A stretch of 64,000 bases of DNA from a virus (Duplodnaviria; Heunggongvirae; Uroviricota; Caudoviricetes): positions 18,999 through 82,998 of the IMG/VR virus record IMGVR_UViG_3300037882_002350; one strand, 5' to 3'. Shown piece after piece: positions 36,394 to 63,786 of this stretch. Both the position numbers and the translations under genes were made by a program. Positions within the stretch are counted from its first letter, which is position 1, and every line of letters starts with the position of its first letter. The notes beneath the pieces are model-generated. The model was not told the DNA's origin. It did not search any database and saw only the letters and a program-made list of their open reading frames with translations.

Positions 36394-36822
36394 ATGATTT
36401 TAAAAATGTATGCTATTTTTGCGCGAGAAACTCTTAAACAAATGCAGTTTGAGGGTAAGCTTGCTGCGCAAGCGGGTCACGCCTTTCTACATGCTTGGTG
36501 GGATGCAGAAAACCGTCTTGAAATAAACGGACACCATTATTCTGATTATTATAGGGACGTAATGCTTCCTTATAAAAACGGAAATGATGCCCGTAAAATC
36601 ACCTTAGTTGTAGATACTGTCGACGAGCTAGAGGAACTGTACTATAAATTCCGTCCCCATATGGGAGCAACTCTTGTAGAAGACTGTGGTTATACGGTTT
36701 TTGATGAACCAACAATAACAGCTGTTGGACTCGGTCCAATTCCTAGTGACTGGACTATAGGTACGTCTTTATCTGACTTACCTACACTACAAAATGAAAT
36801 TCATGGAGAAAAATATGTTTAA
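36394..36822 (+). CDS. PTH2-family peptidyl-tRNA hydrolase-like protein
   Basis: KLAAQAGHAFLHAW matches the PTH2 catalytic motif (KIAAQCSHA...). TLVVDT..EL and TLVEDCGYTVF..PTITAVGLGP correspond to conserved PTH2 strands. Confidence 0.45.
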   Translation: MILKMYAIFARETLKQMQFEGKLAAQAGHAFLHAWWDAENRLEINGHHYSDYYRDVMLPYKNGNDARKITLVVDTVDELEELYYKFRPHMGATLVEDCGYTVFDEPTITAVGLGPIPSDWTIGTSLSDLPTLQNEIHGEKYV

Positions 36823-37144
36823 GAAAATTGTTTCAGTTTTAGCTTTGGGACTCTCACTATCTGCTTGTGGTCAATTAAATAAAGAAACTCACACATTTAC
36901 AGTAGACTCTAAGGAACGTAAATGTGATAGCGCGGGTGAAACTACAGATTGCTATTACGTAGTTTACGGCACAGGTGGTGAGGTTTTTGAAAACCGTGAC
37001 GACCTGTTGAACGCTAAATTTAATAGTGGTACTTTACAAGCTAAATTTAAAGTTGGAAGCACTTACACAGTTAGAACTACTGGCTGGCGTAACGAGTTTC
37101 TCTCTATGCAACCCAATATTATTGAGGTAAAATTTGTTAAGTAA
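36794..37144 (+). CDS. lipoprotein
   Basis: Signal peptide with lipobox LSLSAC. 116 aa. The true start may be the ATG at 36815. Confidence 0.4.
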   Translation: MKFMEKNMFKKIVSVLALGLSLSACGQLNKETHTFTVDSKERKCDSAGETTDCYYVVYGTGGEVFENRDDLLNAKFNSGTLQAKFKVGSTYTVRTTGWRNEFLSMQPNIIEVKFVK

Positions 37145-37288
37145 TATCCTATCTCTGCTTATATTTAGAGCAAAGATGCTTTTGACAACCAACCCGTTTG
37201 CCCCAATTGCGTTCGTTCATCGAACAAGAGAGGGGCACGTCTGGCAAATTGTAGTTAGCAGAGTTCCCGAACTGGAGAAACAAGTAGC

Positions 37289-37585
37289 ATGAAAATAAGT
37301 AAAGAAGCTAGGCAGTATGCTTGGTATTATAATGATTTTCATTGTGTGCCGGATAGAGAAATGCGTGAAGGCTGGTTTTCGGGAAAATACGATAATCATC
37401 CACAAGGTGGAGCAATACGTTTATTTGCAAAATTTGAAACAAAAATACGAGAAGACGAACGCATAGCGGCAGAACAACGCGGCATGGAACGGGCTGCGGT
37501 GATTGCGGAGGGTCTTTCATCGCCTGAACAGTATCACGACATCGCCGCTGCAATACGCAACGCAAAGGAGGCGAATGATGGATAA
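37289..37585 (+). CDS. hypothetical protein (GC-rich island)
   Basis: 98-aa ORF. Local GC is about 55%, against about 38% in the flanks. Confidence 0.35.
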   Translation: MKISKEARQYAWYYNDFHCVPDREMREGWFSGKYDNHPQGGAIRLFAKFETKIREDERIAAEQRGMERAAVIAEGLSSPEQYHDIAAAIRNAKEANDG

Positions 37586-37853
37586 GGAAAAAGTTGCTCG
37601 TGATATTGTCGCCAAACACTATCCCGAAATGAAGCCGTCATACAAAGGACGTAGACTGACAATAGCGCAGGAAGCGTATGCATCCGGACAGAAAACCGCC
37701 TACGCGCCCGACCGGATAACGCCGGAAGTGGTGGAGGCTGCGGCTAGGGCGATAAGCCTGAATACAACGATGACAGAGGATAATTGGCCGAACTTTGTAG
37801 GGGCCGCCAAAGCCGCGCTCCTTGCAGCGTTTGCGACGTTGGGAGGTGTGTGA
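37578..37853 (+). CDS. hypothetical protein (GC-rich island)
   Basis: RBS aaggaggcgaATG. 91 aa. Confidence 0.35.
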   Translation: MDKEKVARDIVAKHYPEMKPSYKGRRLTIAQEAYASGQKTAYAPDRITPEVVEAAARAISLNTTMTEDNWPNFVGAAKAALLAAFATLGGV

Positions 37854-37974
37854 TGGAATACATAATATACGTAATAATTGCCGGAGCGTGCTGCACCTGT
37901 TTTGCTCTTGGCGTGTTTTGTGAACGCGGGAAACCGAGCCGTCACTTTTGCATCCGTTGCCAGAGTAAATTGCC

Positions 37975-38340
37975 ATGACAACACTATCAACCCGCCTAGC
38001 AGCGGCAACGCAACTAACGCCCGAACTCCGCGAAGAAATGGCGCGGCTTTGCGGGTGGTCGTGGGAAAAAGCAATTCCAGTAGGACAAGGAAGCTGCGCT
38101 AGTGGGTGGGTACGCGACAAAGATGTGCAGTGGACATTGCCCAAGCTCGACCTCACCGAGATAGTGGCAGAGAACGACCGGCGCGGGTGGGATAGCAGCC
38201 ATGATACGGCATTCGGCCAATGTCAATTTAGAGTGGCAACCGGCTGCAAACTACATCGCGCCAGCCGCCCCGACCGCAACATCCAGCTATGCGCTATGAC
38301 TGCGCTGGCGATGGCTTTGGAGAACACGAATGCAGAATGA
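37975..38340 (+). CDS. hypothetical protein (GC-rich island)
   Basis: 121-aa ORF. The ORFs in the island overlap start to stop. Confidence 0.35.
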   Translation: MTTLSTRLAAATQLTPELREEMARLCGWSWEKAIPVGQGSCASGWVRDKDVQWTLPKLDLTEIVAENDRRGWDSSHDTAFGQCQFRVATGCKLHRASRPDRNIQLCAMTALAMALENTNAE

Positions 38341-38659
38341 CCTTACACAAGCTGAATTGAGTAAGCCGGACGTTGCACAAGCGGATTGCGCCTCAACCTT
38401 CGCCCATATCCGTGAACAGGCTGGCGAAGAAAGCACATGGGATGGGTTGCCGCGCCAGATAATGATGTGGCTGGACATGGAACCAAAGACGCCTGATACA
38501 CTATTCAAACACCTAGAACGCAGCGGCTATGAAATTCCGCAATGGTTGCTTGATGAACCTGAAATGCGTCAACGCGACCATGTGCCAAGTAAAGGGACGC
38601 GATGCGTTATCCTGTTTCGCGCCATGCTCGACCAGATCGAAAGGACAACCAATGACTGA
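38330..38659 (+). CDS. hypothetical protein (GC-rich island)
   Basis: 109-aa ORF. Confidence 0.35.
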   Translation: MQNDLTQAELSKPDVAQADCASTFAHIREQAGEESTWDGLPRQIMMWLDMEPKTPDTLFKHLERSGYEIPQWLLDEPEMRQRDHVPSKGTRCVILFRAMLDQIERTTND

Positions 38660-39014
38660 CCGCCAACTATCACAAAACGCCGTTATTGCGGCTATCTCGG
38701 TTGTTGGGTGCCAGAGGTTGGAAAACCTCGGCATCCGCGAAGATGACGCGGCCTACAATCAGGCGCTCGAACACGCCATAGCAGCCGTTAAAGCACTGCC
38801 GGAGGTGTCTTTTCGCCCGACAGTGGAGAACTATCTGAAAAAGCGAGTCGCGGAATTAGAGGCTGAATTGTTGTCCCGCAACTTTGCGTTTGATATACTT
38901 ATGCAACAGTCTGACGAATTCGCTAGAACGATGAACCAAAAGACAGACCGGATTTTAGCTCTAGTGAAAAATCACTTTCCAGACAGCCCACCGGAGGCGA
39001 ATGATGGACAGTGA
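38652..39014 (+). CDS. hypothetical protein (GC-rich island)
   Basis: RBS aaaggacaaccaATG. 120 aa. The longer listed ORF 38529..39014 is an upstream in-frame extension. Confidence 0.35.
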   Translation: MTDRQLSQNAVIAAISVVGCQRLENLGIREDDAAYNQALEHAIAAVKALPEVSFRPTVENYLKKRVAELEAELLSRNFAFDILMQQSDEFARTMNQKTDRILALVKNHFPDSPPEANDGQ

Positions 39015-44222: not shown

Positions 44223-44230
44223 TAATAAAA

Positions 44231-44260
44231 GGGCCGCTAATTTCAGCGGCCCTTTTTATT
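44231..44260 (+). terminator. intrinsic terminator
   Basis: GGGCCGCTAATTTCAGCGGCCC followed by TTTTTATTT. Confidence 0.55.
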
Positions 44261-44428: not shown

Positions 44429-44836
44429 TTATCGGTAAAAAAGATGATTACCGATACGAACTGTAAGTTTTAATTTCCATCTAGGATTCACACTTTTACT
44501 ATGAAAGTACATGGCTCCATACGTAGGGTCACTACCCGGATTTTTAGCAATTTTAAGCGCTTTATTCCAGTCCGCGCCGGAGTAGGTAACTCTTCTGCTA
44601 TACAAAAATTGGCCTCGTTGATTAACAACTTGGCACGGGGTTAACTTTCTAGTTTTAGCTCTGTTTAGTATAACATGAGCCACCGCCCTTTTACCTAAAT
44701 CAGACTCTCCTCTAGCTTCGCCATAAATGGCTTGTGCTACACAAGTTACTTGTTGGGGTGGTAAATCAATAAACATAATATTCGGCCTATAGCCTTTGGT
44801 TCTCCTTTTAAATAAAATAAAAAGGGGGCTTGTCAC
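44429..44836 (-). CDS. cell-wall hydrolase (SleB/Hydrolase_2 family)
   Basis: AQAIYGEARGESDLGKRAVAHVILNRAK matches the conserved SleB-type hydrolase block. GTG start. Confidence 0.5.
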   Translation of the reverse strand: MTSPLFILFKRRTKGYRPNIMFIDLPPQQVTCVAQAIYGEARGESDLGKRAVAHVILNRAKTRKLTPCQVVNQRGQFLYSRRVTYSGADWNKALKIAKNPGSDPTYGAMYFHSKSVNPRWKLKLTVRIGNHLFYR

Positions 44837-44846
44837 CCCCTTTTTA

Positions 44847-45047
44847 CTAATTTCTTTGATCTTGTTGATCTCTATCAGCCCTTCGCTGCCTTGCGATTGC
44901 TGATCTTTTCAAACGTCTTTTACGATCACTAGGTTTTTCAAAAAATCTCTTCTCCTGTAATTCTTTAAAGACATTCTCTTCGGCAAGCTTACGTTTTAGA
45001 GTCCTAATTGCTCGGTCTAAGTTTCCGTTTCTTACTTCAATTTTCAT
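44847..45047 (-). CDS. rpsU: ribosomal protein bS21 homologue
   Basis: IEVRNGNLDRAIRTLKRKLAEENVFKELQEKRFFEKPSDRKRRLKRSAIARQ aligns along its length with bacterial S21 ([52 protein letters not shown]). Confidence 0.6.
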   Translation of the reverse strand: MKIEVRNGNLDRAIRTLKRKLAEENVFKELQEKRFFEKPSDRKRRLKRSAIARQRRADRDQQDQRN

Positions 45048-45053: not shown

Positions 45054-45488
45054 TTACTTTCTTCCTGTTGAACCAAATCCGCCGGTTCCGCGGTTTGTAG
45101 AGTCCAATTCACTTACTTCTACAATTTCAGCTTTAGCGACTGGGCATAACACTAATTGCGCTATCCTATCACCATACTCTACGTGAAAATCTTCTTTTCC
45201 AAGATTTTGTAGAATTACACCAATCTCTCCACGATAGTCACTGTCTATCGTTCCAGGAGAGTTAGTAATGGTAATTCCATGTTTAAGAGCCAAACCGGAC
45301 CGCGGTCTAACTTGGATTTCAAAACCTTGAGGAATTGCAACTGCAAAACCTGTTTTTACCAATTTAATCTCGCCTGCTGGAATTAATAAAGTATCAGCTG
45401 ACCTTATATCCATACCTGCGGCTTCTTCAGAAGCATAACTAGGTAGAGGGAGGTCTAATCCATTAGATAATCGTTTAAATTGAATCAT
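45054..45488 (-). CDS. dut: dUTP diphosphatase
   Basis: Classic dUTPase motifs: [37 protein letters not shown]. Confidence 0.8.
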
Positions 45489-46756: not shown

Positions 46757-47020
46757 ATGAGAGACAACGGAATTAACTTTGCTAATATTAATAAGGAACA
46801 ATCAGTGAATAAAAAATGCAAAAGACTTGGTAATACTGCAACCAAAAAAGAATTAGCGGAAGCACATCGCATTAAGATGGAAATGAAAATCTTAATGAAT
46901 GAACATAACCGAAAACAGCTGATAGATAATCCCGAATGGATTTATGCTAATATTAGTAAACATCACGAACACTACGGTGACACACCTAAAGAGCATGAGA
47001 AACGAAAACTAAAAATCTAA
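46757..47020 (+). CDS. hypothetical early protein
   Basis: 87-aa ORF. Confidence 0.3.
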   Translation: MRDNGINFANINKEQSVNKKCKRLGNTATKKELAEAHRIKMEMKILMNEHNRKQLIDNPEWIYANISKHHEHYGDTPKEHEKRKLKI

Positions 47021-47705: not shown

Positions 47706-47735
47706 TAACTCTTGACATTTAGTTAAAAGTATCGT
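47706..47735 (+). promoter_or_regulatory. sigma70-type promoter of the tmRNA-like gene
   Basis: TTGACA, 17 nt spacer, TAGTAT. Confidence 0.45.
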
Positions 47736-47741
47736 AGTATG

Positions 47742-48300
47742 CAAACATAGTTGTTGATAAAGGACAATAAAAGTGAACAGGACGCGGAGGGCAGCACTCC
47801 GCCGCCTCCACCATTAAATCTACCTAGGTATTTAAGGGACCGAAAGCGTAGAGCCAGCAGCCTTAACTGCAAACAACACGCCAACCTCATAAGTTGGAAT
47901 CGGGGCTTGGCTTCCCCCACTTGTCGGGTGACAGGTTAGTGTAAGGCGTTGGTAGATTTATTGATGGGGGCGAAATAGGATCGACTGGCGCAGAATAGGA
48001 AATTAGTAGACTATTGACTAGCAAAGTGCTAAAATCGTTAAATGCAAATGACAACGAAAACACTGTGGAGTATGCGCTAGCCGCATAATTTAACGGGGAT
48101 TGGCCCACCTGGCAACATAACGGGCTAACATCTTTAAGAACCGGGATGCAACAGCTATAAGTAAGTATATGAAAACCTTGAGAAAGGCATTTCAATATGA
48201 CTAGTAATATACTGAACGAAAAGTGGTGCTGAAATTAATAAAGTAGCTAATTATTAAGGGGTTCGACTCCCTGCATAACGGCTCTTAAAGATGTAGTTTT
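47742..48300 (+). ncRNA. ssrA: circularly permuted (two-piece) tmRNA-like gene: acceptor piece then coding piece with tag ORF
   Basis: Acceptor piece at 47780-47813 is GGACGCGGAG-ggcagca-CTCCGC-CGCCTCC-A-CCA; compare the E. coli tmRNA 3' end GGACGCGGGTTCAACTCCCGCCAGCTCCACCA. At 47966-47986, GGGGGCGAAATAGGATCGAC is complementary to CGCCTCC; compare the E. coli 5' end GGGGCTGATTCTGGATTCGAC. Tag reading frame 48044-48088: GCA AAT GAC AAC GAA AAC ACT GTG GAG TAT GCG CTA GCC GCA TAA = ANDNENTVEYALAA*. Confidence 0.65.
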
Positions 48301-49698: not shown

Positions 49699-49728
49699 CT
49701 TGACAGAACACTTAAAATTTAATATAAT
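49699..49728 (+). promoter_or_regulatory. consensus early promoter
   Basis: TTGACA (49699-704) and TATAAT (49723-28), then GAG. Confidence 0.5.
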
Positions 49729-49756: not shown

Positions 49757-50776
49757 ATGAAATACGATTTATTAGTTTACATAGGGCGCTTTCAGCCACT
49801 TCATCGGGGACACCAAGAAGTGATTGAACGTGCCCTTTTGCTTTCCAAAAAGGTGCTTGTTCTAGTTGGTTCAGCAAACCAAGCGCGTACGACGCGCAAC
49901 CCATTCACTTATGATGAACGTGCAACTCTAATTAATGAGCTATACCCAAGTGTAGTCACTAAGCCTCTACAAGACCATACCTACAACGATACGGCGTGGA
50001 TTGCGGAAGTACAAAAACAAGTTAAAGAAACTTTGCTAGGAACTGGTTGGACTCCTGATGGTCTTTCTGATTACAAAGTTGGCCTCATAGGTTGCAACAA
50101 AGATGCAACATCTTACTACCTTAAGATGTTCCCAAATTGGGCTAACGAAAGTATAGAGCATTTTGATGAAATTGACGCAACTCCTATTCGCAATCGCTTT
50201 CTAGCCAATAAAATGAATGAAGCTTTTATGGAGCAGGTTGTTATAAGTCAAAATGTATACGAGTTTATGCAAGACTTTATGATTACAGATAGCTATACAG
50301 CCTTAAATGAGGAATATAAGTATCTTGTTAAATATAAAGAAAACTACGGGCACGGTCCTTTCCTCACAGCTGATGCACTTATCCAGGTTGGTGGGAAAAT
50401 CCTACTTATCCGTCGCGGAAAAGAATATGGACATGGTCTGTTGGCGCTTCCCGGTGGATTTGTTAATCTGGGAGAGACCTTTATCAACGCTTTCCTTCGG
50501 GAACTGCGAGAGGAAACAAATCTTAGAGTCCCTGTGCCAGTCTTAAAAGGCTCAATTAAGAATACTTTTATGGCTGATGAACCTAATCGTTCGGCACGAG
50601 CACGGCTAGTGTCACAAGTATTCCACGTTAAACTGGAAAACGATGTGAAATTGCCCGAAGTACGTGGCGGCGACGATGCTGATGAAGCGTTGTGGGTTGA
50701 TATTGCGGACTTGCGTCGTGAGGACTTCTTTGAAGACCATTATCATATTATTAAGCTTATGTTGGGGTTAAACTAA
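49757..50776 (+). CDS. nadM: bifunctional NMN adenylyltransferase / Nudix hydrolase (NadM-like)
   Basis: N-terminal GRFQPLHRGH (HxGH nucleotidyltransferase motif). C-terminal Nudix box LPGGFVNLGETFINAFLRELREETNL. Confidence 0.7.
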   Translation: MKYDLLVYIGRFQPLHRGHQEVIERALLLSKKVLVLVGSANQARTTRNPFTYDERATLINELYPSVVTKPLQDHTYNDTAWIAEVQKQVKETLLGTGWTPDGLSDYKVGLIGCNKDATSYYLKMFPNWANESIEHFDEIDATPIRNRFLANKMNEAFMEQVVISQNVYEFMQDFMITDSYTALNEEYKYLVKYKENYGHGPFLTADALIQVGGKILLIRRGKEYGHGLLALPGGFVNLGETFINAFLRELREETNLRVPVPVLKGSIKNTFMADEPNRSARARLVSQVFHVKLENDVKLPEVRGGDDADEALWVDIADLRREDFFEDHYHIIKLMLGLN

Positions 50777-51168: not shown

Positions 51169-51855
51169 ATGTTACAATTATATACACCAAATACAATTCC
51201 ATTTTGGACAGAAGACGAAATCGAATTTAGAGAACTTTTTCAAGCACGAGTAGTAACTCGTATTAAACAGACTCTCACAGATATGAATAAAGCTTGGCGT
51301 TTTCATCGAATCGAAGGTCCTTGCCTGTCCCCTAGATATAAAATTGGTAATAGTTATGATGATAGTGATATTTTTGTCACTAATCATAAAGTAGAGTCTG
51401 ATTTTTTATGTCTAAGGGCAGAAACAACGCCATCTAGTTATGAATATGCGAGATTTTTAAACAAACAGCAATTACCTTTATGTGTATGGCAATCTGGTAA
51501 AAGTTTTCGCCGTGAAGTTAATGATGGTGCAACAGCTGCGAAACTTCGTTTCAATGAATTCTATCAATTAGAGTTTCAGTGTATTTATAGTAACACAACA
51601 AAAGCGGATTATAGATCAGCCCTTATTGATGCCGTTGAACAAGAGATTGAACGGTTCACTCAATGTAAAACTCGAGTTGTAGAAAGTGATAGACTTCCTT
51701 TATATTCGGATAGTACTCTAGATATTGAAGTTTATTTAAATAACGAATGGCGAGAGATAGCTTCTTGCTCCATTCGTAATGACTTTTCCGAAAATACGAA
51801 AGTTGCCGAGATCGCTATTGGCCTAGATCGTGTTGTGATAGCGAGTGATATTTAA
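51169..51855 (+). CDS. class II aminoacyl-tRNA synthetase-like catalytic core (class IIb-like, truncated)
   Basis: Motif 2-like KSFRREVNDGATAAKLRFNEFYQLEFQ (fRxE...R..EF.Q.E). Motif 3-like AEIAIGLDRVVIASDI (GxGxDR). Only 228 aa, with no anticodon-binding domain. Confidence 0.4.
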   Translation: MLQLYTPNTIPFWTEDEIEFRELFQARVVTRIKQTLTDMNKAWRFHRIEGPCLSPRYKIGNSYDDSDIFVTNHKVESDFLCLRAETTPSSYEYARFLNKQQLPLCVWQSGKSFRREVNDGATAAKLRFNEFYQLEFQCIYSNTTKADYRSALIDAVEQEIERFTQCKTRVVESDRLPLYSDSTLDIEVYLNNEWREIASCSIRNDFSENTKVAEIAIGLDRVVIASDI

Positions 51856-52636: not shown

Positions 52637-53260
52637 ATGAATAAAATAGAATTTATAGAAGCGATGTTAAAAAATCGCAAATTGAACCCCGAAGACCTTG
52701 TTAGAAAAAAGTATCGCACTGTTCCTAATATCACGGCTTTTAGTTTATTTGAGTCCATCTTTGAAAGAGAAAATGTCAGAGCCATTGCAGCCTACTATGG
52801 AGTGGGTATAAATACAATTAACCGGTTAATGAAAACTCTATTTCCAGATGTTACCATAAAAGGAGGCTCTAGGACTTGGAGATATTATTTACTAGATATT
52901 TTGCGACACAAAATGTGTACAGATTGTGAAGTAATCAAGTCGAAAGAAGAATTTTATATAGGAAATGTAACAGAATTACGTTCTACATGTAAAAGCTGTG
53001 ATGTAGAACGAGCAGCCAAAAGAAGAGCAAAAATATTAAAAGCTACTGATATAGATTCTAGTTTAGATATAATTCAGACAATTTATGCAAATTGCCCAAA
53101 AGGTTATCATGTTGACCATATCATACCTTTAGATAAAGGAGGTAGACATCATCAAAATAATTTATGTTATTTATCTGCTACCGATAATCTACATAAAAGT
53201 AATAAATTACCGGAAATGATACCTGATATAATGGCAAGAGCTATATATCCTAAAATATAA
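52637..53260 (+). CDS. HNH homing endonuclease
   Basis: C-terminal CPKGYHVDHIIPLDKGGRHHQNNLCYLSATDNLHKSNK. Paralogue of 62801..63481. Leaderless: the ATG is 7 nt after a TAAAAT -10. Confidence 0.6.
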   Translation: MNKIEFIEAMLKNRKLNPEDLVRKKYRTVPNITAFSLFESIFERENVRAIAAYYGVGINTINRLMKTLFPDVTIKGGSRTWRYYLLDILRHKMCTDCEVIKSKEEFYIGNVTELRSTCKSCDVERAAKRRAKILKATDIDSSLDIIQTIYANCPKGYHVDHIIPLDKGGRHHQNNLCYLSATDNLHKSNKLPEMIPDIMARAIYPKI

Positions 53261-53263
53261 TTG

Positions 53264-53292
53264 TTGACAATGCTTCTTATTTTTACTATAAT
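53264..53292 (+). promoter_or_regulatory. consensus early promoter
   Basis: TTGACA (53264-69), 17 nt spacer, TATAAT (53287-92), then GAG. Confidence 0.55.
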
Positions 53293-53322: not shown

Positions 53323-54705
53323 ATGACCAAGTTTAATTTCATCCAAGACACTGATAGTTACAAATTTTCCCATTACCAATATTACGTTCCTGGAGCGGAA
53401 CACATTTATAGCTACGCGGAGAGTCGTGGTGGTGTATATCCTGCAAGCGTATTCTTTGGATTACAAAAATATATTAAAGAATTAGCTGATGTTCGTGTAA
53501 CCCTTGACGACTTAGTAGAGGCTTCAGAGTTCGCAGAAGCACACGGTGTACCTTTCAACTATACTGGCTGGAAGAGCATCGTTGTAGACCACAATGGAAA
53601 AATTCCAGTACGTATCAAAGCGGTTGCGGAAGGCACTCTCGTGCCAACCAGCAATGTTCTCGTAACGGTTGAGAATACTGACCCTTCGATGCCTTGGCTA
53701 ACCAGCTATATCGAAACTGCACTTCTGAGAGCGGTTTGGTATCCTACGACTGTAGCTACTCGTATTCACTACATGAAAGAAAGGATTAAGCCATTCTTCG
53801 ATGAAACCAGCGATACTGGCGACATGGGTTTTGCTATTCTTGACTTCTCGGCTCGTGGCGTTTCCAGCCGTGAAACTGCCGAAGTTGGTGGTCTTGGTCA
53901 TTTGGTTCACTTTATCGGTTCGGACAACATTCCAGCTGTTCTAGCTGCTCGTAAATTCTATGATGAGCCAATGGCCGCTTTCAGCGTTGCTGCAACAGAA
54001 CATAGTGTCATGACTAGTTGGGGTGATGAAAATCGTGAGAGCGAAGCAATAAAATATATGATCGATACGATGCCAGAAAACGGTATTCTATCAGTTGTTG
54101 GTGATACTTATAATATCTACAATTTTATTGATAAAGTAGCTCGTCTAGAGGATAAGATTGCGGCTAAGAATGGTACCTTTGTAATCCGCCCAGATTCTGG
54201 CGATATGAATGTTGTGTTACCTAAAGTTTTTGAAAAGGTTCGTAATCTTTTTCAAGGCGAATTTAACAACAAAGGCTATTTCGTGCCTAAGTATGTTAAA
54301 GTTCTGCAAGGCGACGGTATTGATGAGGTTAGTGTTTCTACCCCCTTTAAATTGGCAATGGAAGAAGGGCTTAGTGCAGATTGTATTATGACGGGCTCTG
54401 GTGGTGGACTTATGCAATCGCATATTGATCGTGACACACTAAAATTTGCCTTTAAAGCATCCAGCGTCACTATTAATGGTGTTGATGTTCCGATCGCTAA
54501 GGAACCATTCACTGATCCGGGAAAACGGAGCAAAAAGGGTAAACTAAAGTTAATTACCAATGAAAATAAATATATGACTGTTTCATCTGAAAATGAAAAG
54601 TTTTATCATATAATGTGTGACGAATTAAAACTTGTATATGAGAACGGCGAGGTTTTCAATAACCAAACACTAGCACAAATTCGGGAACGTGCTGCAAAAA
54701 ACTAA
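53323..54705 (+). CDS. nadV: nicotinamide phosphoribosyltransferase (Nampt/NadV)
   Basis: 460 aa. The N-terminus FNFIQDTDSYKFSHYQYY parallels the Nampt N-terminus (FNILLATDSYKVTHYKQY). Size and general similarity fit NadV. Confidence 0.65.
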   Translation: MTKFNFIQDTDSYKFSHYQYYVPGAEHIYSYAESRGGVYPASVFFGLQKYIKELADVRVTLDDLVEASEFAEAHGVPFNYTGWKSIVVDHNGKIPVRIKAVAEGTLVPTSNVLVTVENTDPSMPWLTSYIETALLRAVWYPTTVATRIHYMKERIKPFFDETSDTGDMGFAILDFSARGVSSRETAEVGGLGHLVHFIGSDNIPAVLAARKFYDEPMAAFSVAATEHSVMTSWGDENRESEAIKYMIDTMPENGILSVVGDTYNIYNFIDKVARLEDKIAAKNGTFVIRPDSGDMNVVLPKVFEKVRNLFQGEFNNKGYFVPKYVKVLQGDGIDEVSVSTPFKLAMEEGLSADCIMTGSGGGLMQSHIDRDTLKFAFKASSVTINGVDVPIAKEPFTDPGKRSKKGKLKLITNENKYMTVSSENEKFYHIMCDELKLVYENGEVFNNQTLAQIRERAAKN

Positions 54706-59021: not shown

Positions 59022-59097
59022 GCTCGGTTCGACTTCTGGTGAGGCCACCCTCCTTACAAGTGGGTTAAGATGGGTTCAATTCCCATACCGAGTACCA
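59022..59097 (+). tRNA. tRNA-Val(TAC)-like
   Basis: Acceptor GCTCGGT/ACCGAGT (G1-U72), anticodon arm CCCTC-cTTACaa-GTGGG, T-arm ATGGG-TTCAATT-CCCAT, discriminator A, encoded CCA. The D-stem is weak. Confidence 0.45.
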
Positions 59098-59621
59098 GTT
59101 TTCTAGTAGGTGAGAACCGCTACCTCACACACCTTTCATGCCATATGAAGGTACAATAGCCTTGGTTGCCTATATGGAGACCGCTCCAAGGTGAAGAGAT
59201 CGTACTTTGCAATACGACTAGAAAATATAGGGATGGCTGTCATTCCTTCTACCGCTTAGAGCGGGGTAAAGCCTTTAAATAACCGTATAAGGGGTGGCAT
59301 AACTTGTAGTTCTTAAGTGAACCGTGGCGATCACGATAGCTTCGCACGCATGTCTACTAAGCGTAATATGGTTCGGACGGACTGTAGATAAAAAGCGACC
59401 GTACAGGGAAACCAAATTAGGTCGCTTTAACCGGCCCCGTTATCCAACGTAAATGGACTTCCTTGTGAAAACAAGGAAAGACCTCACCTAGGTGGTCTAA
59501 AAACAGGATCTAGTGTCGCGGAAAAATGGTCAATTCGCGTAGATAAAATAACCACGTGAAGGTACGCACTCGAAGACCTTCTAGTCGTGTGGGCGACGAT
59601 AATACCCACTTAGTTTTATGT

Positions 59622-59695
59622 GCTTCCATCCTCTAATGGTAAGAGACCCGCCTGATTAGCGGTGAATCGGAGTTCGAATCTCTGTGGAAGTACCA
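59622..59695 (+). tRNA. tRNA-Ile(GAT)
   Basis: Acceptor GCTTCCA/TGGAAGT, D-arm CTCT-AATGGTA-AGAG, anticodon loop CTGATTA, T-arm CGGAG-TTCGAAT-CTCTG, then A-CCA. Confidence 0.6.
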
Positions 59696-59698
59696 TAT

Positions 59699-59775
59699 TC
59701 CCCGAAGTGCAAATTGGTATAGCAGCACGGCTTTGAACCGTGTGCTTGTGGGTTCGAAACCCACGCGGGGATCCA
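59699..59775 (+). tRNA. tRNA-Gln(TTG)
   Basis: Acceptor TCCCCGA/GCGGGGA (one mismatch), anticodon arm CACGG-cTTTGaa-CCGTG, T-arm GTGGG-TTCGAAA-CCCAC, then T-CCA. Confidence 0.55.
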
Positions 59776-59783
59776 AATTTAAT

Positions 59784-59873
59784 GGAAGGTTAAGTCAGCA
59801 GGTGCTGGCCTCTGTCTTGAAAACAGATGGTACACGAAGGTGTATGGGGATCGAGACCGCCGGCCTTCCTCCA
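59784..59873 (+). tRNA. type-II tRNA-Ser(TGA)-like
   Basis: Acceptor GGAAGGT/GCCTTCC, anticodon arm TCTGT-cTTGAaa-ACAGA, long variable arm, CCA encoded. I could not fold the T-arm cleanly. Confidence 0.4.
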
Positions 59874-59905
59874 AAAACAACGCTGCATGGTGCGCCCAGC
59901 AGCCT

Positions 59906-59931
59906 CCTCACCGCTACGGCGGTGAGGTTTT
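59906..59931 (+). terminator. intrinsic terminator
   Basis: CCTCACCGC-tac-GGCGGTGAGG followed by TTTT. Confidence 0.5.
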
Positions 59932-60081
59932 AACAAGGAATATATGTTTAACTATTTAGCACAATCTAATACTATAAAACCTCATCTGGGGTTATTTTGT
60001 GCGCATGGCAGGTCGTTTGGTGACGACGGGGGTCTCATAAGCCTCTAGAATTGATTCGATTTCAATACCTGCTACCATTGC

Positions 60082-60115
60082 GCCACGGTTCTAAATGAAT
60101 TTCGTGGCTTTTTTA
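60082..60115 (+). terminator. possible intrinsic terminator
   Basis: GCCACG...CGTGGC followed by TTTTTTATT. The loop is long, at 15 nt. Confidence 0.35.
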
Positions 60116-60337
60116 TTGGAAATAAAATGAAAATTCTTAAAATTACACCTGTACAGTCTTATATTGTAAAAACAGATGATAAAGAGTGGCCTTACTATAG
60201 AACGGACGGTAAAGGCAACTGGGAAAATCAAATAGGTGAGTCTTGGGAAGGCATCTACGATGTGGACGATGAATTAGAAAAAGCCGTTTCTGAATTTCTT
60301 TCTTGACTTTCAACCTGTTTGCATTTATAACAGATAA

Positions 60338-60562
60338 ATGATGACAAAAGAAGAAGAATATGAGCGATTTATTGAAGACCGTGATATGGCGGAGTCGAAC
60401 CTAGAATCTTTAAACGAAGAGATTCGACATCTAGAAATGTCTATGGATAAGTTTGAACTAACAGAAGAGTGGAATTCACTATTCAATGAAATAACAGTTC
60501 TAGAAAGCCGGGTGAATTATTTAAATTCTTGGATTGATGCAGAAATGGACGAGTTTGCTTAG
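60338..60562 (+). CDS. hypothetical acidic coiled-coil protein
   Basis: 74-aa ORF after promoter TTGACT..TATAAC. Its last 16 nt overlap the tRNA-like element at 60547. Confidence 0.35.
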   Translation: MMTKEEEYERFIEDRDMAESNLESLNEEIRHLEMSMDKFELTEEWNSLFNEITVLESRVNYLNSWIDAEMDEFA

Positions 60563-60635
60563 TAGGCCGAAAGCACCGGGCTCTTAATCCGAACGCGAAA
60601 GCGCACCGTGGGTTCGAATCCCACCTCGTCCTCCA
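60547..60635 (+). tRNA. atypical tRNA-like element (type-II-like, anticodon CTT as read)
   Basis: Acceptor GGACGAG/CTCGTCC, T-arm GTGGG-TTCGAAT-CCCAC, T-CCA encoded, variable hairpin CGCGAAAGCG. The D-loop is long and the anticodon stem irregular. Confidence 0.3.
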
Positions 60636-60654
60636 GTTTATAGAAAGTTTCTAC

Positions 60655-60975
60655 ATGCAAATACGGCATCGTCGTTTGGAAGACCGCTTGTGGGTAGAAG
60701 CTATTATAGATAACAGAGTAATAGCTTGGGCTTCTTTTGTTCTTAATGAGAAAAAATACTTATGGTCTGCTTCGACATTTGTAGAGCCTAAATATCGCAG
60801 AGCAAAAGTAGCTAAACAGATTTATATGTATGCACATAATTTAGGGTATGAAATACGACCTTCGGGTCTTCAAACAGATGCCGGCAGGCTCATGTGGAAA
60901 TCCTTTAAAAAACAGAGACTACCATTTGCAAAGTTAAATATATTTGAACGAATAATATATAAAGTCTTAGGTTAA
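60655..60975 (+). CDS. small GNAT-like hypothetical protein
   Basis: 106-aa ORF. VEPKYRRAKVAKQIYMYAHNLGYEI weakly resembles GNAT motif A. Confidence 0.25.
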   Translation: MQIRHRRLEDRLWVEAIIDNRVIAWASFVLNEKKYLWSASTFVEPKYRRAKVAKQIYMYAHNLGYEIRPSGLQTDAGRLMWKSFKKQRLPFAKLNIFERIIYKVLG

Positions 60976-61010
60976 GTCCTAAGCTATGGCCGAAATTGAA
61001 CAGTTCATAT

Positions 61011-61087
61011 GGACCGGTAGTTCAATAGGCTGAACGACGGGCTTTTAATCCGTGCGCATGCGGGTTCGAACCCCACCCGGTCTACCA
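61011..61087 (+). tRNA. tRNA-Lys(TTT)
   Basis: Acceptor GGACCGG/CCGGTCT (G1-U72), D-arm GTTC-AATAGGCT-GAAC, anticodon arm ACGGG-cTTTTaa-TCCGT, T-arm GCGGG-TTCGAAC-CCCAC, then A-CCA. Confidence 0.6.
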
Positions 61088-61234
61088 GTTTAAAAAGACA
61101 AAGGCACAGCATAACTAATACTAGTTAAACATAAGTTATATTAGGTAATTCCTAATTGCACGGCTTATTAACAGAATTAATTACTCAAGTTAATAATCTA
61201 GGTAGCTTTGTGCCACCAATCAAAAAAACAGTTC

Positions 61235-61263
61235 TTGACTTCCAAGGCTGTTTTATGTATAAT
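61235..61263 (+). promoter_or_regulatory. consensus early promoter upstream of a 250-nt leader and tRNA-Pro
   Basis: TTGACT (61235-40), 17 nt spacer, TATAAT (61258-63), then GAGTTATCAAGAG. Confidence 0.55.
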
Positions 61264-61525
61264 GAGTTATCAAGAGCAGAGAGGATCATTTTGCGTTAAC
61301 AGAGTTAATACTCGGTGAAGTAATCAACTTTTTAAATGTTCTGATAAGCTATGCCAAACTAGCGTCGCAAGACGAAGTAAGGCATAAACTCTAGCCCACG
61401 AGTATAAATTGAGCGGGCTGCACAATCCGTTGGATGTTCCGTGCAGGGCTGGGAGAGGGACGGGACTCCTTGCACTAGGGTATCTAAGGAAGATTTAATT
61501 TTAGCACAGCCGCTAAAGCCTACAT

Positions 61526-61602
<77 letters not shown>

Positions 61603-61773
61603 GTTTATGTTGGGTGGGCACAGTCCCTACGAAGTCATCGGTGAGGTTACACCATGCGCCCGACGCCAAGTTTAGCTACGCAAACACTAGTAGGTCAATG
61701 AAAGTGTGGGCTTATGGTGCAGGAGGTATGATGTTGACTCGAATACCACAATACACCGCTAATTAAATTTATG

Positions 61774-61828
61774 TCGAGATTCCCTGGGGGTAAGTGCACA
61801 TAGGCGGTTCGAATCCGTGTCTCGACTC
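61774..61828 (+). pseudogene. truncated tRNA-like fragment (acceptor stem plus T-arm only)
   Basis: GTCGAGA ... GGCGG-TTCGAAT-CCGTG-TCTCGAC. Only about 21 nt lie between the acceptor and the T-arm, and there is no CCA. Confidence 0.25.
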
Positions 61829-61930
61829 TAAGTTTCTCATAACTGAACCAAGTAGACTAGTAAACGCTTGGCAGAAGTTTATGTAGAGGAGAGCCGCGTG
61901 GGGCTAAGTAAAGTACCACGAATTTTAAAT

Positions 61931-62005
61931 GCGTGCGTGGCGTAATCGGTAACGTGACAGGCTTCCAACCTGTAGTCGAGGGTTCGATTCCCTCCGTATG
62001 CTCCA
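61931..62005 (+). tRNA. tRNA-Gly(TCC)
   Basis: Acceptor GCGTGCG/CGTATGC (two G-U pairs), anticodon arm ACAGG-cTTCCaa-CCTGT, T-arm GAGGG-TTCGATT-CCCTC, then T-CCA. Confidence 0.6.
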
Positions 62006-62041
62006 AATTCCGAGACATTCTGTCTCAACTTAGGAGAAACA

Positions 62042-62527
62042 ATGAAACTATTTACAATCGCAGCACTAGCTGCTGCCCTCGTAACGACACCAGCTCTTTC
62101 GCGAACTAATGAGAATTTTACCGGAGTCCGAGCAGAAGTAACGGCGGGTGTTAATGATGTTACTAATAGCCCTGATGTAAACGATGTTGTATATGGAGCA
62201 GCTATTGGCGTAGATGTACCTGTTAGTGACCGATTTACATTTGGTGTAGAAGCAAATACGAGCAATGTATTTGAAGATGAACGCCAAATTGGTGCTAGTA
62301 TGCGTATTGGTTACGCACTTAATAAACAATTTCTTGGCTACGTGAAAGGCGGTTATAACAATTATAATAATGTCTTTTCTCAAAAACTAGACGGTGCTAC
62401 AGCAGGTGCCGGTGTAGAGTTCAGCATTAGTGATAATAGCTATGTGAAAGCAGAATATAATTATACTGATTTTCAAGCTAATACAGGAAGCCACGCGGCA
62501 CTTATTGGTGTGGGACTTCGATTTTAA
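62042..62527 (+). CDS. outer-membrane beta-barrel protein (Lom/Ail/OmpX-like)
   Basis: Signal peptide MKLFTIAALAAALVTTPALS. Alternating amphipathic beta strands. Aromatic C-terminus ...ALIGVGLRF. 161 aa, RBS aggagaaacaATG. Confidence 0.55.
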   Translation: MKLFTIAALAAALVTTPALSRTNENFTGVRAEVTAGVNDVTNSPDVNDVVYGAAIGVDVPVSDRFTFGVEANTSNVFEDERQIGASMRIGYALNKQFLGYVKGGYNNYNNVFSQKLDGATAGAGVEFSISDNSYVKAEYNYTDFQANTGSHAALIGVGLRF

Positions 62528-62676
62528 TAAGGTACTGGTCTCTCATAGAACCTGGTTGCGTTCGCGACGCACATTATGATAAGCGGTGACTTTCAGCTTA
62601 TCAAATTCATAAGTGACCCTCGGTCAGCGCAGCTTATGACGTTTTCGGGTATCGAATAACCCGCCAGATTTTATAT

Positions 62677-62753
62677 GCCTGCGTAGTCCAACGGTAGGAG
62701 ACAACACGCTTAGAACGTGAACAGTGTCAGTTCGAATCTGACCGTAGGTACCA
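62677..62753 (+). tRNA. tRNA with anticodon TAG (Leu by anticodon) but a short type-I variable loop
   Basis: Acceptor GCCTGCG/CGTAGGT, anticodon arm CACG-cTTAGaa-CGTG, T-arm GTCAG-TTCGAAT-CTGAC, then A-CCA. Confidence 0.5.
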
Positions 62754-62764
62754 AAATTTAATTC

Positions 62765-62793
62765 TTGACTTTCGACCTCCAAATTGCTATAAT
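62765..62793 (+). promoter_or_regulatory. consensus early promoter (leaderless HNH gene)
   Basis: TTGACT (62765-70), 17 nt spacer, TATAAT (62788-93). The ATG at 62801 lies 7 nt downstream. Confidence 0.5.
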
Positions 62794-62800
62794 TTGGCAT

Positions 62801-63481
62801 ATGGAAGAAAAAATAAAAGAAAATTTTTATCAAAAATTACAAATTGATCGCAAAGCGGAGTTTGTGTCTAAATGGGGAGTTAAACCTGCAATTACAATAG
62901 AGAATCTTATAGATGCTTTATGGTTGTTTGAAACAGGTCCTAAAGCTATAGAATTTTTAGGTCGATCTCCTCAAAGTTTTAATAGAAATATAAAAAAACT
63001 ATTTCCAAATGTACAGTTACAAGGAGGTGGACAAACATGGAAGCATTGGCTTATAAGTCAATCAGACTATAAGCGGTGTTGTACTTGTAATAATTTTAAG
63101 TTAAAAATTGATTTTAATAAAGAAAAATCTCGCTACGATAATTTAAGTTCAAAATGCAGAGACTGTGCCAAAGATAGCAGTGCTGAAAACTATAAAAATA
63201 ATCAAAGTTACTTTATAGAATATCGTGCAACTCATGATTCAGAACAACGAGCACGCACAGCTAAAAGAAGAGCAGCGAAATTACAGAGAACTCCCAAATG
63301 GGCTGATCTCAAAGCCATTCAATTAGTATATAAGCTATGCCCTGAAGGTTATCATGTAGATCATATTTATCCTTTGCAAGGGGAGTTTGTTTCTGGATTA
63401 CATGTCGAGAATAACTTACAATATTTAACTGAAAAAGAAAATCTTAAAAAGGGCAATAAGATGCCTGAATTTATTTCTTGA
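62801..63481 (+). CDS. HNH homing endonuclease
   Basis: C-terminal CPEGYHVDHIYPL...HVENNLQYLTEKENLKKGNK. Paralogue of 52637..53260. The listed ORF 62765..63481 starts inside the promoter. Confidence 0.55.
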   Translation: MEEKIKENFYQKLQIDRKAEFVSKWGVKPAITIENLIDALWLFETGPKAIEFLGRSPQSFNRNIKKLFPNVQLQGGGQTWKHWLISQSDYKRCCTCNNFKLKIDFNKEKSRYDNLSSKCRDCAKDSSAENYKNNQSYFIEYRATHDSEQRARTAKRRAAKLQRTPKWADLKAIQLVYKLCPEGYHVDHIYPLQGEFVSGLHVENNLQYLTEKENLKKGNKMPEFIS

Positions 63482-63525
63482 CTTTGAAGCCCTAAACGAA
63501 TATAATGGCTTTATTAAGAGACAAT

Positions 63526-63612
63526 GGGGTTGTGGCGAAACTGGTTATACGCGCGAGACTTAAAATCTTGTGGATTTATTCCGTGTGGGTTCGAGTCCCA
63601 TCTTCCCTACCA
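63526..63612 (+). tRNA. type-II tRNA-Leu(TAA)-like
   Basis: Anticodon arm CGAGA-cTTAAaa-TCTTG, long variable hairpin GGATTTATCC, T-arm GTGGG-TTCGAGT-CCCAT, A-CCA encoded. The acceptor GGGGTTG/CTTCCCT has two U-U mismatches. It is fed directly by promoter 63478-63506. Confidence 0.45.
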
Positions 63613-63701
63613 TTTAAATAAAGGAGATAAAGATGTTTACAATTATTTTGCTTGGTGTAGCCATTTATGGTGGATATAAATGGGGTCAACATAACAATTA
63701 A

Positions 63702-63786
63702 GGGTAGGTAAAGCTAGTGGTTCTAGCAGGGAGTCTGTAAAACTCCTCCGGTCTCGGGAGTGATTCGATCTCACACCTGCCCACCA
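63702..63786 (+). tRNA. type-II tRNA-Tyr(GTA)
   Basis: Acceptor GGGTAGG/CCTGCCC, D-arm GCTA-GTGGTTC-TAGC, anticodon arm GGAGT-cTGTAaa-ACTCC, long variable hairpin CCGGTCTCGG, T-arm GTGA-TTCGATC-TCAC, then A-CCA. Confidence 0.55.

What the first reader, a model, noticed from the sequence alone, without database searches (positions are those of the whole stretch)
36394..63786. A translation-rescue toolkit dispersed through the early region
The same early region carries several translation-related genes. These are the tmRNA-like gene (47.7-48.3 kb), a PTH2-type peptidyl-tRNA hydrolase homologue (36394..36822) and a ribosomal protein S21 homologue (44847..45047). There is also a truncated class II aaRS-like catalytic core (51169..51855) and a cluster of about 10 tRNAs (59.0-63.8 kb). 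Individually, phage S21 and phage tRNAs are documented. Together with tmRNA and a PTH2 they suggest a coordinated strategy to keep translation running. Threats would include host anticodon nucleases or toxin-induced ribosome stalling, or the phage's own A1-type host shutoff. The whole region is driven by one family of very strong early promoters.
Basis: inference. Interest (0 to 1): 0.6.

Follow-up and report, generated by a model that had tools for sequence, protein, structure and literature searches.

The report
Translation-support genes in a T5-like phage
A T5-like phage of an alphaproteobacterium really does carry a ribosome-rescue RNA (tmRNA), a peptidyl-tRNA hydrolase, ribosomal protein S21, a stripped-down tRNA-synthetase-like enzyme and about ten tRNAs, but they are separate genes rather than one module, and such sets are already known from other phages.

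Summary
All five components are real at the stated coordinates. PTH2 (36394-36822), S21 (44847-45047, minus strand) and the class II aaRS core (51169-51855) pass Pfam thresholds. A two-piece alpha-type tmRNA (47749-48130) passes two Rfam thresholds. It has a G3:U70 acceptor stem, an encoded CCA, its own promoter and the tag ANDNENTVEYALAA. There are 9 confident and 3 marginal tRNAs.

The phage is a distant T5 relative (A1 protein). Its host is probably an alphaproteobacterium (GcrA-like regulator, alpha-type tmRNA).

S21 and the tmRNA keep their positions in three or four related contigs, and PTH2 in three. The aaRS-like gene is missing from the same site in two relatives, so it is a recent insertion. 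It lies between the two genes of a NAD-salvage (NARP2) pair.

In other phages, PTH2 lies near tmRNAs (8 of 25 loci) and suppressor tRNAs (9 of 25). The aaRS-like gene has no constant neighbour. It belongs to a discrete, uncharacterised family of ~230-residue proteins.

Most of the tRNAs read A-ending codons that the AT-rich phage prefers.

Verdict: observation confirmed. A single coordinated toolkit is only partly supported. This is a compact new member of a known kind of phage translation-gene set.

The parts
36394..36822 (+). PTH2-type peptidyl-tRNA hydrolase, 142 aa
   Evidence: PF01981 at 46.8 bits against a cut-off of 23. It aligns to archaeal Pth2 structures 2zv3 and 1rlk. The GK22..AQAGH29, D97, T101 and GxGP115 positions are invariant in 30 homologues. 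It falls below the NCBIfam equivalog cut-offs (44 against 126).
44847..45047 (-). Ribosomal protein S21 homologue, 66 aa, in a minus-strand block with dUTPase (45054-45488) and a cell-wall hydrolase (44429-44836)
   Evidence: PF01165 at 60.7 bits against 27. TIGR00030 at 57.8 against 28.95. It is 66-79% identical to genes at the same position in L163, L164, L195 and L197. A terminator-like hairpin lies just 3' of it at 44818-44846, and another at 44227-44256 closes the block beyond the hydrolase gene.
47712..47740 (+). Promoter-like site of the tmRNA gene (TTGACA, 17 nt, TAGTAT)
   Evidence: It ends 8 nt before the start of the tmRNA_permuted match.
47749..47813 (+). tmRNA acceptor piece, with an alpha-type T-arm and a 3' end CGCCUCC-ACCA
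   Evidence: Rfam alignments. Sequence read directly. The 3' strand at 47803-47809 pairs with GGGGGCG at 47966-47972 and gives a G3:U70 pair.
47814..47965 (+). Intervening segment of the permuted tmRNA precursor (152 nt), presumably removed on maturation
   Evidence: It forms an insertion in both Rfam alignments. Its fold is not significant, z = -0.9. Spacers of about 18 to 256 nt are seen in other phage two-piece tmRNAs.
47966..48130 (+). tmRNA coding piece. Tag reading frame 48044-48088 encodes ANDNENTVEYALAA followed by a stop codon.
   Evidence: Tags of the same type (ANDNFA..ALAA) occur in about 110 viral contigs. nhmmer matches this part at the same position in L195, L197/L198 and (weakly) L163; in L163 ARAGORN also calls the gene.
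51169..51855 (+). Stand-alone class II aaRS catalytic core, 228 aa, with no anticodon-binding domain. It is the last gene of the operon NMNAT-Nudix, orf70, orf62, aaRS-like.
   Evidence: Pfam. Motifs 1-3 are invariant. AlphaFold2 model with Foldseek top hit M. tuberculosis GlyRS 8t5n, E 2e-13. More than 1000 homologues of 58-69% identity. 97 cluster representatives at E <= 1e-30, nearly all 210-260 aa. Start and stop codons overlap at 50776, 50981-50988 and 51169. The gene is absent at this site in L195 and L197.
59022..63786 (+). tRNA array. Confident: Val-UAC, Ile-GAU, Gln-UUG, Lys-CUU, Lys-UUU, Pro-UGG, Gly-UCC, Leu-UAG, Leu-UAA. Marginal: Ser-UGA, Met-CAU, Tyr-GUA. Small ORFs, a GNAT-like gene and an outer-membrane beta-barrel gene are interspersed.
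   Evidence: Promoter-like sites at 58837, 61235, 62765 and 63478.
49757..50776 (+). Context: bifunctional NMN adenylyltransferase/Nudix, behind a 12-of-12 consensus promoter at 49700-49728
   Evidence: PF01467 plus PF00293. NF003786 at E 2.5e-105. Promoter.
53323..54705 (+). Context: nicotinamide phosphoribosyltransferase. Together with 49757-50776 it forms a NARP2-type NAD-salvage pair.
   Evidence: PF18127 plus PF04095. NF006629 at 496 bits against 405. Promoter at 53264-53292.

Best explanation
The window is part of a roughly 110-kb-class T5-like siphophage that probably infects an alphaproteobacterium. Its early region holds five genuine translation-related loci. They are separate transcription units that act in parallel on the host's protein-synthesis machinery. 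They are not one co-regulated module.

Shown:
- The identity and intactness of each gene.
- The tmRNA's own promoter.
- Conserved positions of S21 and the tmRNA (three or four relatives) and of PTH2 (three relatives).
- The recent insertion of the aaRS-like gene.

Inferred:
1. The two-piece tmRNA is charged by host AlaRS through its G3:U70 pair and delivered by host SmpB and EF-Tu. It frees ribosomes stalled on truncated mRNAs, which should accumulate after A1-type host shutoff. It tags the peptides with ...YALAA for proteolysis.
2. PTH2 releases tRNA from dropped-off peptidyl-tRNA, or from N-acylated aminoacyl-tRNA.
3. The tRNAs supply the A-ending codons favoured by the AT-rich phage genes.
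4. S21 joins host 30S subunits and biases initiation.
5. The 228-residue class II core keeps its ATP and adenylate-forming residues but has no anticodon-binding domain. It probably makes an aminoacyl-adenylate (glycine-like pocket) and passes it to an acceptor stem or to some other acceptor. Its target is unknown.
For: Gene identities.

tmRNA anatomy read from the sequence: GGGGGCG at 47966 pairs with CGCCUCC at 47803, followed by ACCA. The tag runs from a GCA resume codon to a UAA stop. The promoter is at 47712.

Lineage conservation: L163 and L164 keep PTH2 (62% and 57% identity), the SPFH gene, the hydrolase, S21 (66% and 70%) and dUTPase. L163 then has a permuted tmRNA. L195 and L197/L198 keep S21 (76-79%), the tmRNA (nhmmer E 3e-7 and 1e-14), NMNAT-Nudix, NAMPT and ThyX in the same order.

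Linkage across lineages: a tmRNA lies within 10 kb of PTH2 in 8 of 25 loci, against 1 of 42 aaRS-like loci (Fisher p = 0.001).

tRNAs: seven of the nine confident ones decode A-ending codons with RSCU of 1.04-1.95. GC3 is 0.29.

Host: GcrA-like regulator, PF07750 above its cut-off. The T-arm fits the alpha_tmRNA consensus. The nearest cultivated homologues of PTH2 and the aaRS-like protein are almost all in Caulobacter, Brevundimonas and Sinorhizobium phages. The nearest S21 homologues are in Pelagibacter phages.

Published precedent: PMC7162821, PMC9004378, PMC11242549.
Against: - No expression or activity data exist, so every mechanistic step is inferred from homology.
- PTH2 scores below the NCBIfam equivalog cut-offs, so its substrate may differ from that of archaeal Pth2.
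- No SmpB was found among the roughly 40 larger ORFs scanned. The window is only part of the genome and many small ORFs were not scanned.
- ARAGORN with default settings did not call the tmRNA.
- The host's codon usage is unknown, so the codon-supply argument is one-sided.
- The window's acceptor piece differs from that of its relatives. nhmmer matched only the coding piece there.
- The aaRS-like gene's operon partners are NAD-salvage genes, so it may have nothing to do with translation.
Confidence: 0.6

Rival explanations
1. Counter-defence island. The genes are kept mainly to survive abortive-infection systems that attack tRNA or NAD+. The tRNAs replace tRNAs cut by anticodon nucleases. PTH2 deacylates tRNAs that toxins have N-acetylated or otherwise blocked. 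The tmRNA clears the stalled ribosomes that result. The NMNAT/NAMPT pair (NARP2) rebuilds NAD+. The aaRS-like enzyme re-charges or protects tRNA 3' ends.
For: The aaRS-like gene sits between the two NARP2 genes, in the operon of the first, NMNAT-Nudix. The same neighbourhood recurs elsewhere. In phiCbK the order is RtcB, SpoT-like HD hydrolase, PTH2, NMNAT-Nudix, NAMPT. In CcrBL9 it is NMNAT, NAMPT, aaRS-like, with an RNA ligase about 4 kb away. L031-L036 carry a PncB/NadE/NMNAT/PncA cluster next to the aaRS-like gene, and RtcB adjoins it in L002, L011 and L194. In L192 it lies beside Lar and a DNA methylase. NARP2 is a proven anti-defence pathway (bioRxiv 10.1101/2024.02.11.579819).
Against: The tRNA repertoire tracks phage codon preference, not the known nuclease targets alone. 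No RtcB or other RNA-repair enzyme was found among the window ORFs scanned. PTH2, S21 and the tmRNA are 3-15 kb from the NAD genes and in other transcription units. The linkage could simply reflect a shared accessory-gene region.
Confidence: 0.25
2. Unconnected accessory genes. Each was picked up separately from the gene pool shared by phages of Alphaproteobacteria and is kept or lost on its own. Their presence together is a by-product of a large accessory early region.
For: The aaRS-like gene is absent from L195 and L197, and no neighbour is conserved across 44 loci. Near 120 viral tmRNA loci there are no PTH2 and no aaRS-like genes, and S21 appears in only 7. Homing-type HNH genes flank the tmRNA (47009-47644) and the aaRS-like gene (52637-53260).
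Against: S21, the tmRNA and PTH2 keep their order across relatives that share only 50-79% protein identity. PTH2 is significantly linked to tmRNAs and to suppressor tRNAs in unrelated phages.
Confidence: 0.12
3. The tmRNA is a non-functional host fragment, for example an attachment-site remnant.
For: ssrA fragments are known in prophages (discussed in PMC9004378). ARAGORN did not call it.
Against: Both pieces are complete. The acceptor pairing, the CCA and the tag with its stop codon are intact. It has its own consensus-like promoter. It scores 39-42 bits above the Rfam gathering thresholds. A tmRNA lies at the same position in three or four relatives. No integrase was seen.
Confidence: 0.03

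Closest known systems
Translation-gene sets of huge and jumbo phages (Al-Shayeb et al. 2020, PMC7162821; Sinorhizobium phage AP-J-162, PMC11242549)
   Same: Both combine tRNA arrays, tRNA-synthetase-type genes, S21, a tmRNA and a peptidyl-tRNA hydrolase. In both cases the genes are interpreted as keeping or redirecting host translation.
   Different: Here the set sits in a T5-like siphophage with relatives of about 111-115 kb, not a genome above 200 kb. No SmpB, initiation or elongation factors, or release factors were seen. The synthetase is a 228-residue core, not a full-length enzyme.
Two-piece tmRNAs of marine and aquatic phages (Melnitz and pelagimyophages, Buchholz et al. 2022, PMC9004378)
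   Same: A permuted alpha-type ssrA lies directly behind an early sigma-70 promoter. The tag is of the ANDN...ALAA type. S21 occurs in the same phage group.
   Different: Rfam finds no glutamine riboswitch here. The virion type is different (T5-like siphophage rather than T4-like myophage). The intervening segment is 152 nt.
phiCbK-like and Bertelyvirus phages of Caulobacter
   Same: They hold the closest cultivated homologues of PTH2 (43-46% identity) and of the aaRS-like protein (45-48%). Both genes lie next to NMNAT-Nudix and NAMPT. GcrA-like regulators are reported in Caulobacter phages (abstract of PMC13459779).
   Different: They are unrelated giant siphophages with high G+C content. Their protein identity to the window is below 50%. 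tblastn found no S21 homologue in them.
Dimeric (alpha2) glycyl-tRNA synthetase and other class II aaRS catalytic domains; stand-alone paralogues such as HisZ, AsnA, EpmA and amino acid:carrier-protein ligases (listed from general knowledge)
   Same: The class II fold and motifs 1-3 are shared. The best sequence and structure matches are to GlyRS.
   Different: It is about half the length of GlyRS and has no anticodon-binding or insertion domains. It scores 45 bits against a GlyRS cut-off of 312. It forms a discrete family of its own. No stand-alone paralogue ranks near the top; HisZ gives only a far sub-threshold hit (20 bits against 272).

Membership tests
tmRNA (two-piece, alphaproteobacterial type) | Covariance-model score above the curated threshold | tested here: met
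   RF01849 at 89.2 bits against 50. RF04321 at 89.1 bits against 47.
tmRNA (two-piece, alphaproteobacterial type) | Acceptor stem formed between the two pieces, with a G3:U70 pair and a 3' CCA | tested here: met
   GGGGGCG (47966-47972) pairs with CGCCUCC (47803-47809), followed by ACCA.
tmRNA (two-piece, alphaproteobacterial type) | Tag reading frame that starts at an alanine resume codon, ends in a hydrophobic ..LAA and is followed by a stop codon | tested here: met
   48044-48088 encodes ANDNENTVEYALAA and then a stop.
tmRNA (two-piece, alphaproteobacterial type) | Processing into two RNAs, alanylation, and SmpB-dependent trans-translation | not testable with these tools
   This needs RNA and protein experiments. 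No SmpB was found among the ORFs scanned.
Peptidyl-tRNA hydrolase PTH2 | Pfam PF01981 above its gathering score | tested here: met
   46.8 bits against 23.
Peptidyl-tRNA hydrolase PTH2 | Conserved Lys and Asp of the GK..AQ..HA and D.G.T motifs. Their active-site role is recalled from the archaeal Pth2 literature, not tested here. | tested here: met
   K22, D97 and T101 are invariant in 30 homologues and align with 2zv3.
Peptidyl-tRNA hydrolase PTH2 | Equivalog-level score (same function as archaeal Pth2) | tested here: not met
   NF003314 at 44 bits against 126. TIGR00283 at 43 against 82. It is a divergent member.
Ribosomal protein S21 | Pfam and NCBIfam equivalog thresholds | tested here: met
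   60.7 bits against 27. 57.8 against 28.95.
Ribosomal protein S21 | Incorporation into 30S subunits | not testable with these tools
   This needs ribosome purification from infected cells.
Class II aminoacyl-tRNA synthetase | Class II catalytic fold with motifs 1, 2 and 3 | tested here: met
   EGPcLxP, LRAETT..GKSFRRE..RFNEFWQLEFQ and EIAIGLDR are conserved. Foldseek E 2e-13 to GlyRS.
Class II aminoacyl-tRNA synthetase | tRNA-recognition (anticodon-binding) domain | tested here: not met
   The 228 residues are fully taken up by the core. Family members are nearly all 210-260 aa.
Glycyl-tRNA synthetase | Equivalog-level sequence score | tested here: not met
   NF003211 at 45 bits against 312. 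TIGR00389 at 24 against 243.
Class II aminoacyl-tRNA synthetase | Amino-acid activation and tRNA charging | not testable with these tools
   This needs ATP-PPi exchange and aminoacylation assays.
T5-like phage (A1-dependent two-step DNA transfer and host shutoff) | An A1 homologue upstream of the early region | tested here: met
   23601-25262: phrog_1745 at E 6e-152. About 40% identity to the A1 of Klebsiella T5-like phages.

The most novel reading that the evidence does not exclude
The ~230-residue class II core may be a previously uncharacterised, horizontally mobile phage enzyme family. There are more than 1000 sequences, 58-69% identical across unrelated phages. The enzyme would work without anticodon recognition.

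One possibility is that it aminoacylates or protects tRNA or tmRNA acceptor ends. It is embedded in or abuts tRNA arrays in about 15 of 42 loci.

The other is that it partners NAD-salvage phosphoribosyltransferases, by analogy with HisZ and HisG. It lies next to NAD genes in at least four lineages.

Separately, PTH2, tmRNA and suppressor tRNAs may form a recurring phage module that copes with ribosome stalling caused by stop-codon read-through or by host shutoff.
Probability: 0.2. Interest if true: 0.7.

Novelty: new member of a known kind. Interest (0 to 1): 0.4.

Why it matters
It shows that a mid-sized T5-like phage, not only huge phages, can hold a compact set of ribosome-rescue and tRNA-recycling genes. 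Part of that set (S21 and the tmRNA, and PTH2 in three relatives) is stable within the lineage.

It yields two testable leads. The first is a significant PTH2-tmRNA-suppressor-tRNA linkage across phages. The second is a large, highly conserved and unstudied family of minimal class II synthetase-like proteins that travels between tRNA arrays and NAD-salvage clusters. Either lead could tell us how phages keep translation going under host shutoff or abortive-infection stress.

Tried and rejected
- Nucleotide searches of GenBank phages with 8 kb of the region and with the tmRNA found nothing, so there is no close cultivated relative.
- The exact-sequence look-up of the window's aaRS-like protein was not on record.
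- Walking along the L163 contig with an exact 35-mer returned only 1.2 kb.
- A scan with the NMNAT protein found only distant jumbo phages, not the relatives.
- I tested whether the aaRS-like gene is tied to the tmRNA. It is not: 1 of 42 aaRS-like loci has a tmRNA, and none of 120 tmRNA loci has the gene.
- I considered reading the gene as a one-piece tmRNA that ends at the T-arm-like hairpin near 48258. I rejected this because no complementary acceptor strand or CCA follows it.
- Rfam finds no glutamine riboswitch of the Melnitz type.
- The 48125-48300 element has no homologue in any fetched locus.
- The afdb50 fold library was unavailable.
- A literature search for a characterised phage minimal class II aaRS found nothing relevant.
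- Cluster look-ups gave no informative names.

Full report
WHAT THE WINDOW IS

Positions 2-18 kb carry minus-strand virion genes: terminase, portal, a head protease/major head protein and the major tail protein. From 19 kb onward there is a long plus-strand early region.

An A1 DNA-transfer protein homologue lies at 23601-25262 (phrog_1745, E 6e-152). It is about 40% identical to the A1 of Klebsiella T5-like phages. No nucleotide-level relative exists in GenBank phages.

The host is most likely an alphaproteobacterium:
- A GcrA-like regulator lies at 19116-19700, with PF07750 above its cut-off.
- The tmRNA fits the alpha-specific model, including its reduced T-loop.
- The only cultivated phages with homologues of the PTH2 and the aaRS-like protein are almost all Caulobacter, Brevundimonas and Sinorhizobium phages.
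- The nearest S21 homologues are in Pelagibacter phages.

CHECK OF THE OBSERVATION

PTH2, S21 and the class II core all pass the Pfam gathering scores.

The tmRNA passes two Rfam models by about 40 bits. Read directly, it is a textbook permuted gene:
- a promoter, TTGACA-17-TAGTAT, at 47712
- an acceptor piece at 47749-47813 ending CGCCUCC-ACCA
- a 152-nt spacer
- a coding piece starting GGGGGCG at 47966, which pairs with the acceptor 3' strand and gives G3:U70, the alanine identity pair
- a tag frame at 48044-48088 encoding ANDNENTVEYALAA and a stop.

ARAGORN with default settings missed it.

Nine tRNAs are found by both tools.

The promoter claim holds for the plus strand. TTGACW-N17-TAWAAT occurs 13 times against 0.14 expected. 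Sites lie in front of the NMNAT operon, NAMPT, tRNA-Val and tRNA-Leu.

S21 is on the minus strand, in a block with dUTPase and a cell-wall hydrolase. A terminator-like hairpin lies just 3' of S21 at 44818-44846, and another at 44227-44256 closes the block.

IS IT A CONSERVED SET?

PTH2-centred and S21-centred searches recovered syntenic relatives. These are L163 and L164 (contigs of 111 and 115 kb), L168, L195 (82 kb) and L197/L198.
- L163 and L164 keep PTH2 (62% and 57% identity), the SPFH gene, the hydrolase, S21 (66% and 70%) and dUTPase. L163 then has a permuted tmRNA.
- L195 and L197 keep S21 (76-79%), the tmRNA, NMNAT-Nudix, a deoxyribonucleotidase-like gene, NAMPT and ThyX in the window's order.
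- In both L195 and L197 the aaRS-like gene is missing from the site between the homologues of 50981-51169 and 52070-52582.

So S21, the tmRNA and, where the locus reaches far enough, PTH2 are lineage features. The aaRS-like gene is a recent insertion. The nearby HNH endonuclease (52637-53260) also sits at a different position in L195, upstream of NMNAT-Nudix.

ACROSS OTHER PHAGES

Two-piece tmRNAs are common in viral contigs. A loose pattern hit its 120-locus limit, and nearly all hits carry ANDN...LAA tags. This agrees with Buchholz et al. 2022.

PTH2 homologues (25 loci) usually lie in or beside tRNA arrays:
- 8 have a tmRNA within 10 kb, against 1 of 42 aaRS-like control loci (Fisher p = 0.001).
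- 9 have a suppressor tRNA with anticodon CUA, UCA or UUA, against 1 of 42 (Fisher p = 0.0004).

These loci are not phylogenetically independent, so the p-values are indicative only.

In phiCbK, PTH2 lies between an RtcB/SpoT-like HD block and the NMNAT-Nudix/NAMPT pair.

THE aaRS-LIKE PROTEIN

It belongs to a discrete family:
- More than 1000 sequences are 58-69% identical to it.
- There are 97 cluster representatives at E <= 1e-30, nearly all 210-260 residues.
- All three class II motifs are invariant.
- The confident AlphaFold2 model matches GlyRS first, then PheRS-alpha, PylRS and SepRS cores.
- It scores far below every NCBIfam synthetase cut-off.

It occurs in genomes from 37 kb to more than 600 kb. 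No protein-coding neighbour is conserved. Two contexts recur:
- tRNA arrays, in about 15 of 42 loci, sometimes only about 25 nt from a tRNA-Gly
- NAD-salvage clusters, in the window, CcrBL9, L003 and L031-L036.

RtcB adjoins it in three loci. In the window it is translationally coupled to the NMNAT-Nudix operon.

Its substrate and acceptor remain unknown.

THE tRNAs

The phage has a GC3 of 0.29. Seven of the nine confident tRNAs read A-ending codons whose RSCU is 1.04-1.95. This fits codon supply. It does not exclude a decoy role against anticodon nucleases.

COMPARISON WITH WHAT IS KNOWN

Sets of tRNAs, synthetases, S21, tmRNA and SmpB are described for huge phages (PMC7162821). A tmRNA together with peptidyl-tRNA hydrolases is described for a Sinorhizobium jumbo phage (PMC11242549). 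Promoter-proximal two-piece tmRNAs are described for marine phages (PMC9004378). NAMPT plus NMNAT is the published NARP2 counter-defence pathway.

The window is therefore a compact new member of a known kind, in a smaller T5-like genome. No paper in the searched library describes this combination in a T5-like phage.

VERDICT

The genes are real and plausibly keep translation running, and part of the set is conserved. It is not one unit. The aaRS-like gene is an accessory insertion linked to NAD salvage. The proposed threats are untested.

The most interesting leftovers are the uncharacterised minimal class II family and the PTH2-tmRNA-suppressor-tRNA linkage.

Noticed in passing
window 48125-48300 (+): A 176-nt element just after the tmRNA folds far better than shuffled sequence (z = -4.65). 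A 13-bp stem closes it, and it holds a T-arm-like hairpin, GGGGTTCGACTCCCT. By eye, that hairpin and the bases before it resemble the acceptor-piece T-arm of the tmRNAs in relatives L163 and L195, but no acceptor strand or CCA follows. It may be a decayed second acceptor piece or a processing signal. nhmmer finds no homologue in any fetched locus.
   Followed up: partly
L163-L187 (PTH2 loci in viral contigs): Suppressor tRNAs (anticodon CUA, UCA or UUA) lie within 10 kb of PTH2 in 9 of 25 loci, often directly upstream. The comparison set of aaRS-like loci has 1 of 42. Window relatives L164 (UUA) and L168 (CUA) each have one. None is seen in the window.
   Followed up: partly
window 49757-50776 and 53323-54705 (+): A NARP2-type NAD-salvage pair (NMNAT-Nudix and NAMPT). 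Each gene sits behind a perfect 12-of-12 sigma-70 consensus promoter, at 49700 and 53264.
   Followed up: partly
window 19116-19700 (+): A GcrA-like cell-cycle regulator is the first gene of the early region, behind a consensus promoter at 19081. It points to an alphaproteobacterial host.
   Followed up: partly
window 60547-60635 (+): The tRNA with anticodon CUU (Lys) is 89 nt long and appears, by eye, to have a long variable arm, which is unusual for tRNA-Lys. Its charging identity is uncertain.
   Followed up: no
window 60655-60975 and 62042-62527 (+): A short GNAT-like acetyltransferase ORF and an outer-membrane beta-barrel protein gene (PF13505) lie inside the tRNA array.
   Followed up: no
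window 47009-47644 (-) and 52637-53260 (+): HNH-type endonuclease genes lie immediately beside the tmRNA and close to the aaRS-like gene. The second one sits at a different position in relative L195. This suggests homing-driven shuffling of this region.
   Followed up: partly
window 59100-59620 (+): About 500 nt between tRNA-Val and tRNA-Ile hold no convincing ORF. There is a weak sub-threshold match to the skipping-rope RNA at 59100-59224 (26.8 bits against 36.7).
   Followed up: no
window 47749-47813 versus L163, L195 and L197: The window's tmRNA acceptor piece has the reduced alpha-type T-loop (GGCAGCA). In relatives L163 and L195 it has a canonical GGTTCGACT-type or GGTTTGACT-type loop. 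In L163, L195 and L197, nhmmer matches only the coding piece. The acceptor piece may have been replaced.
   Followed up: partly
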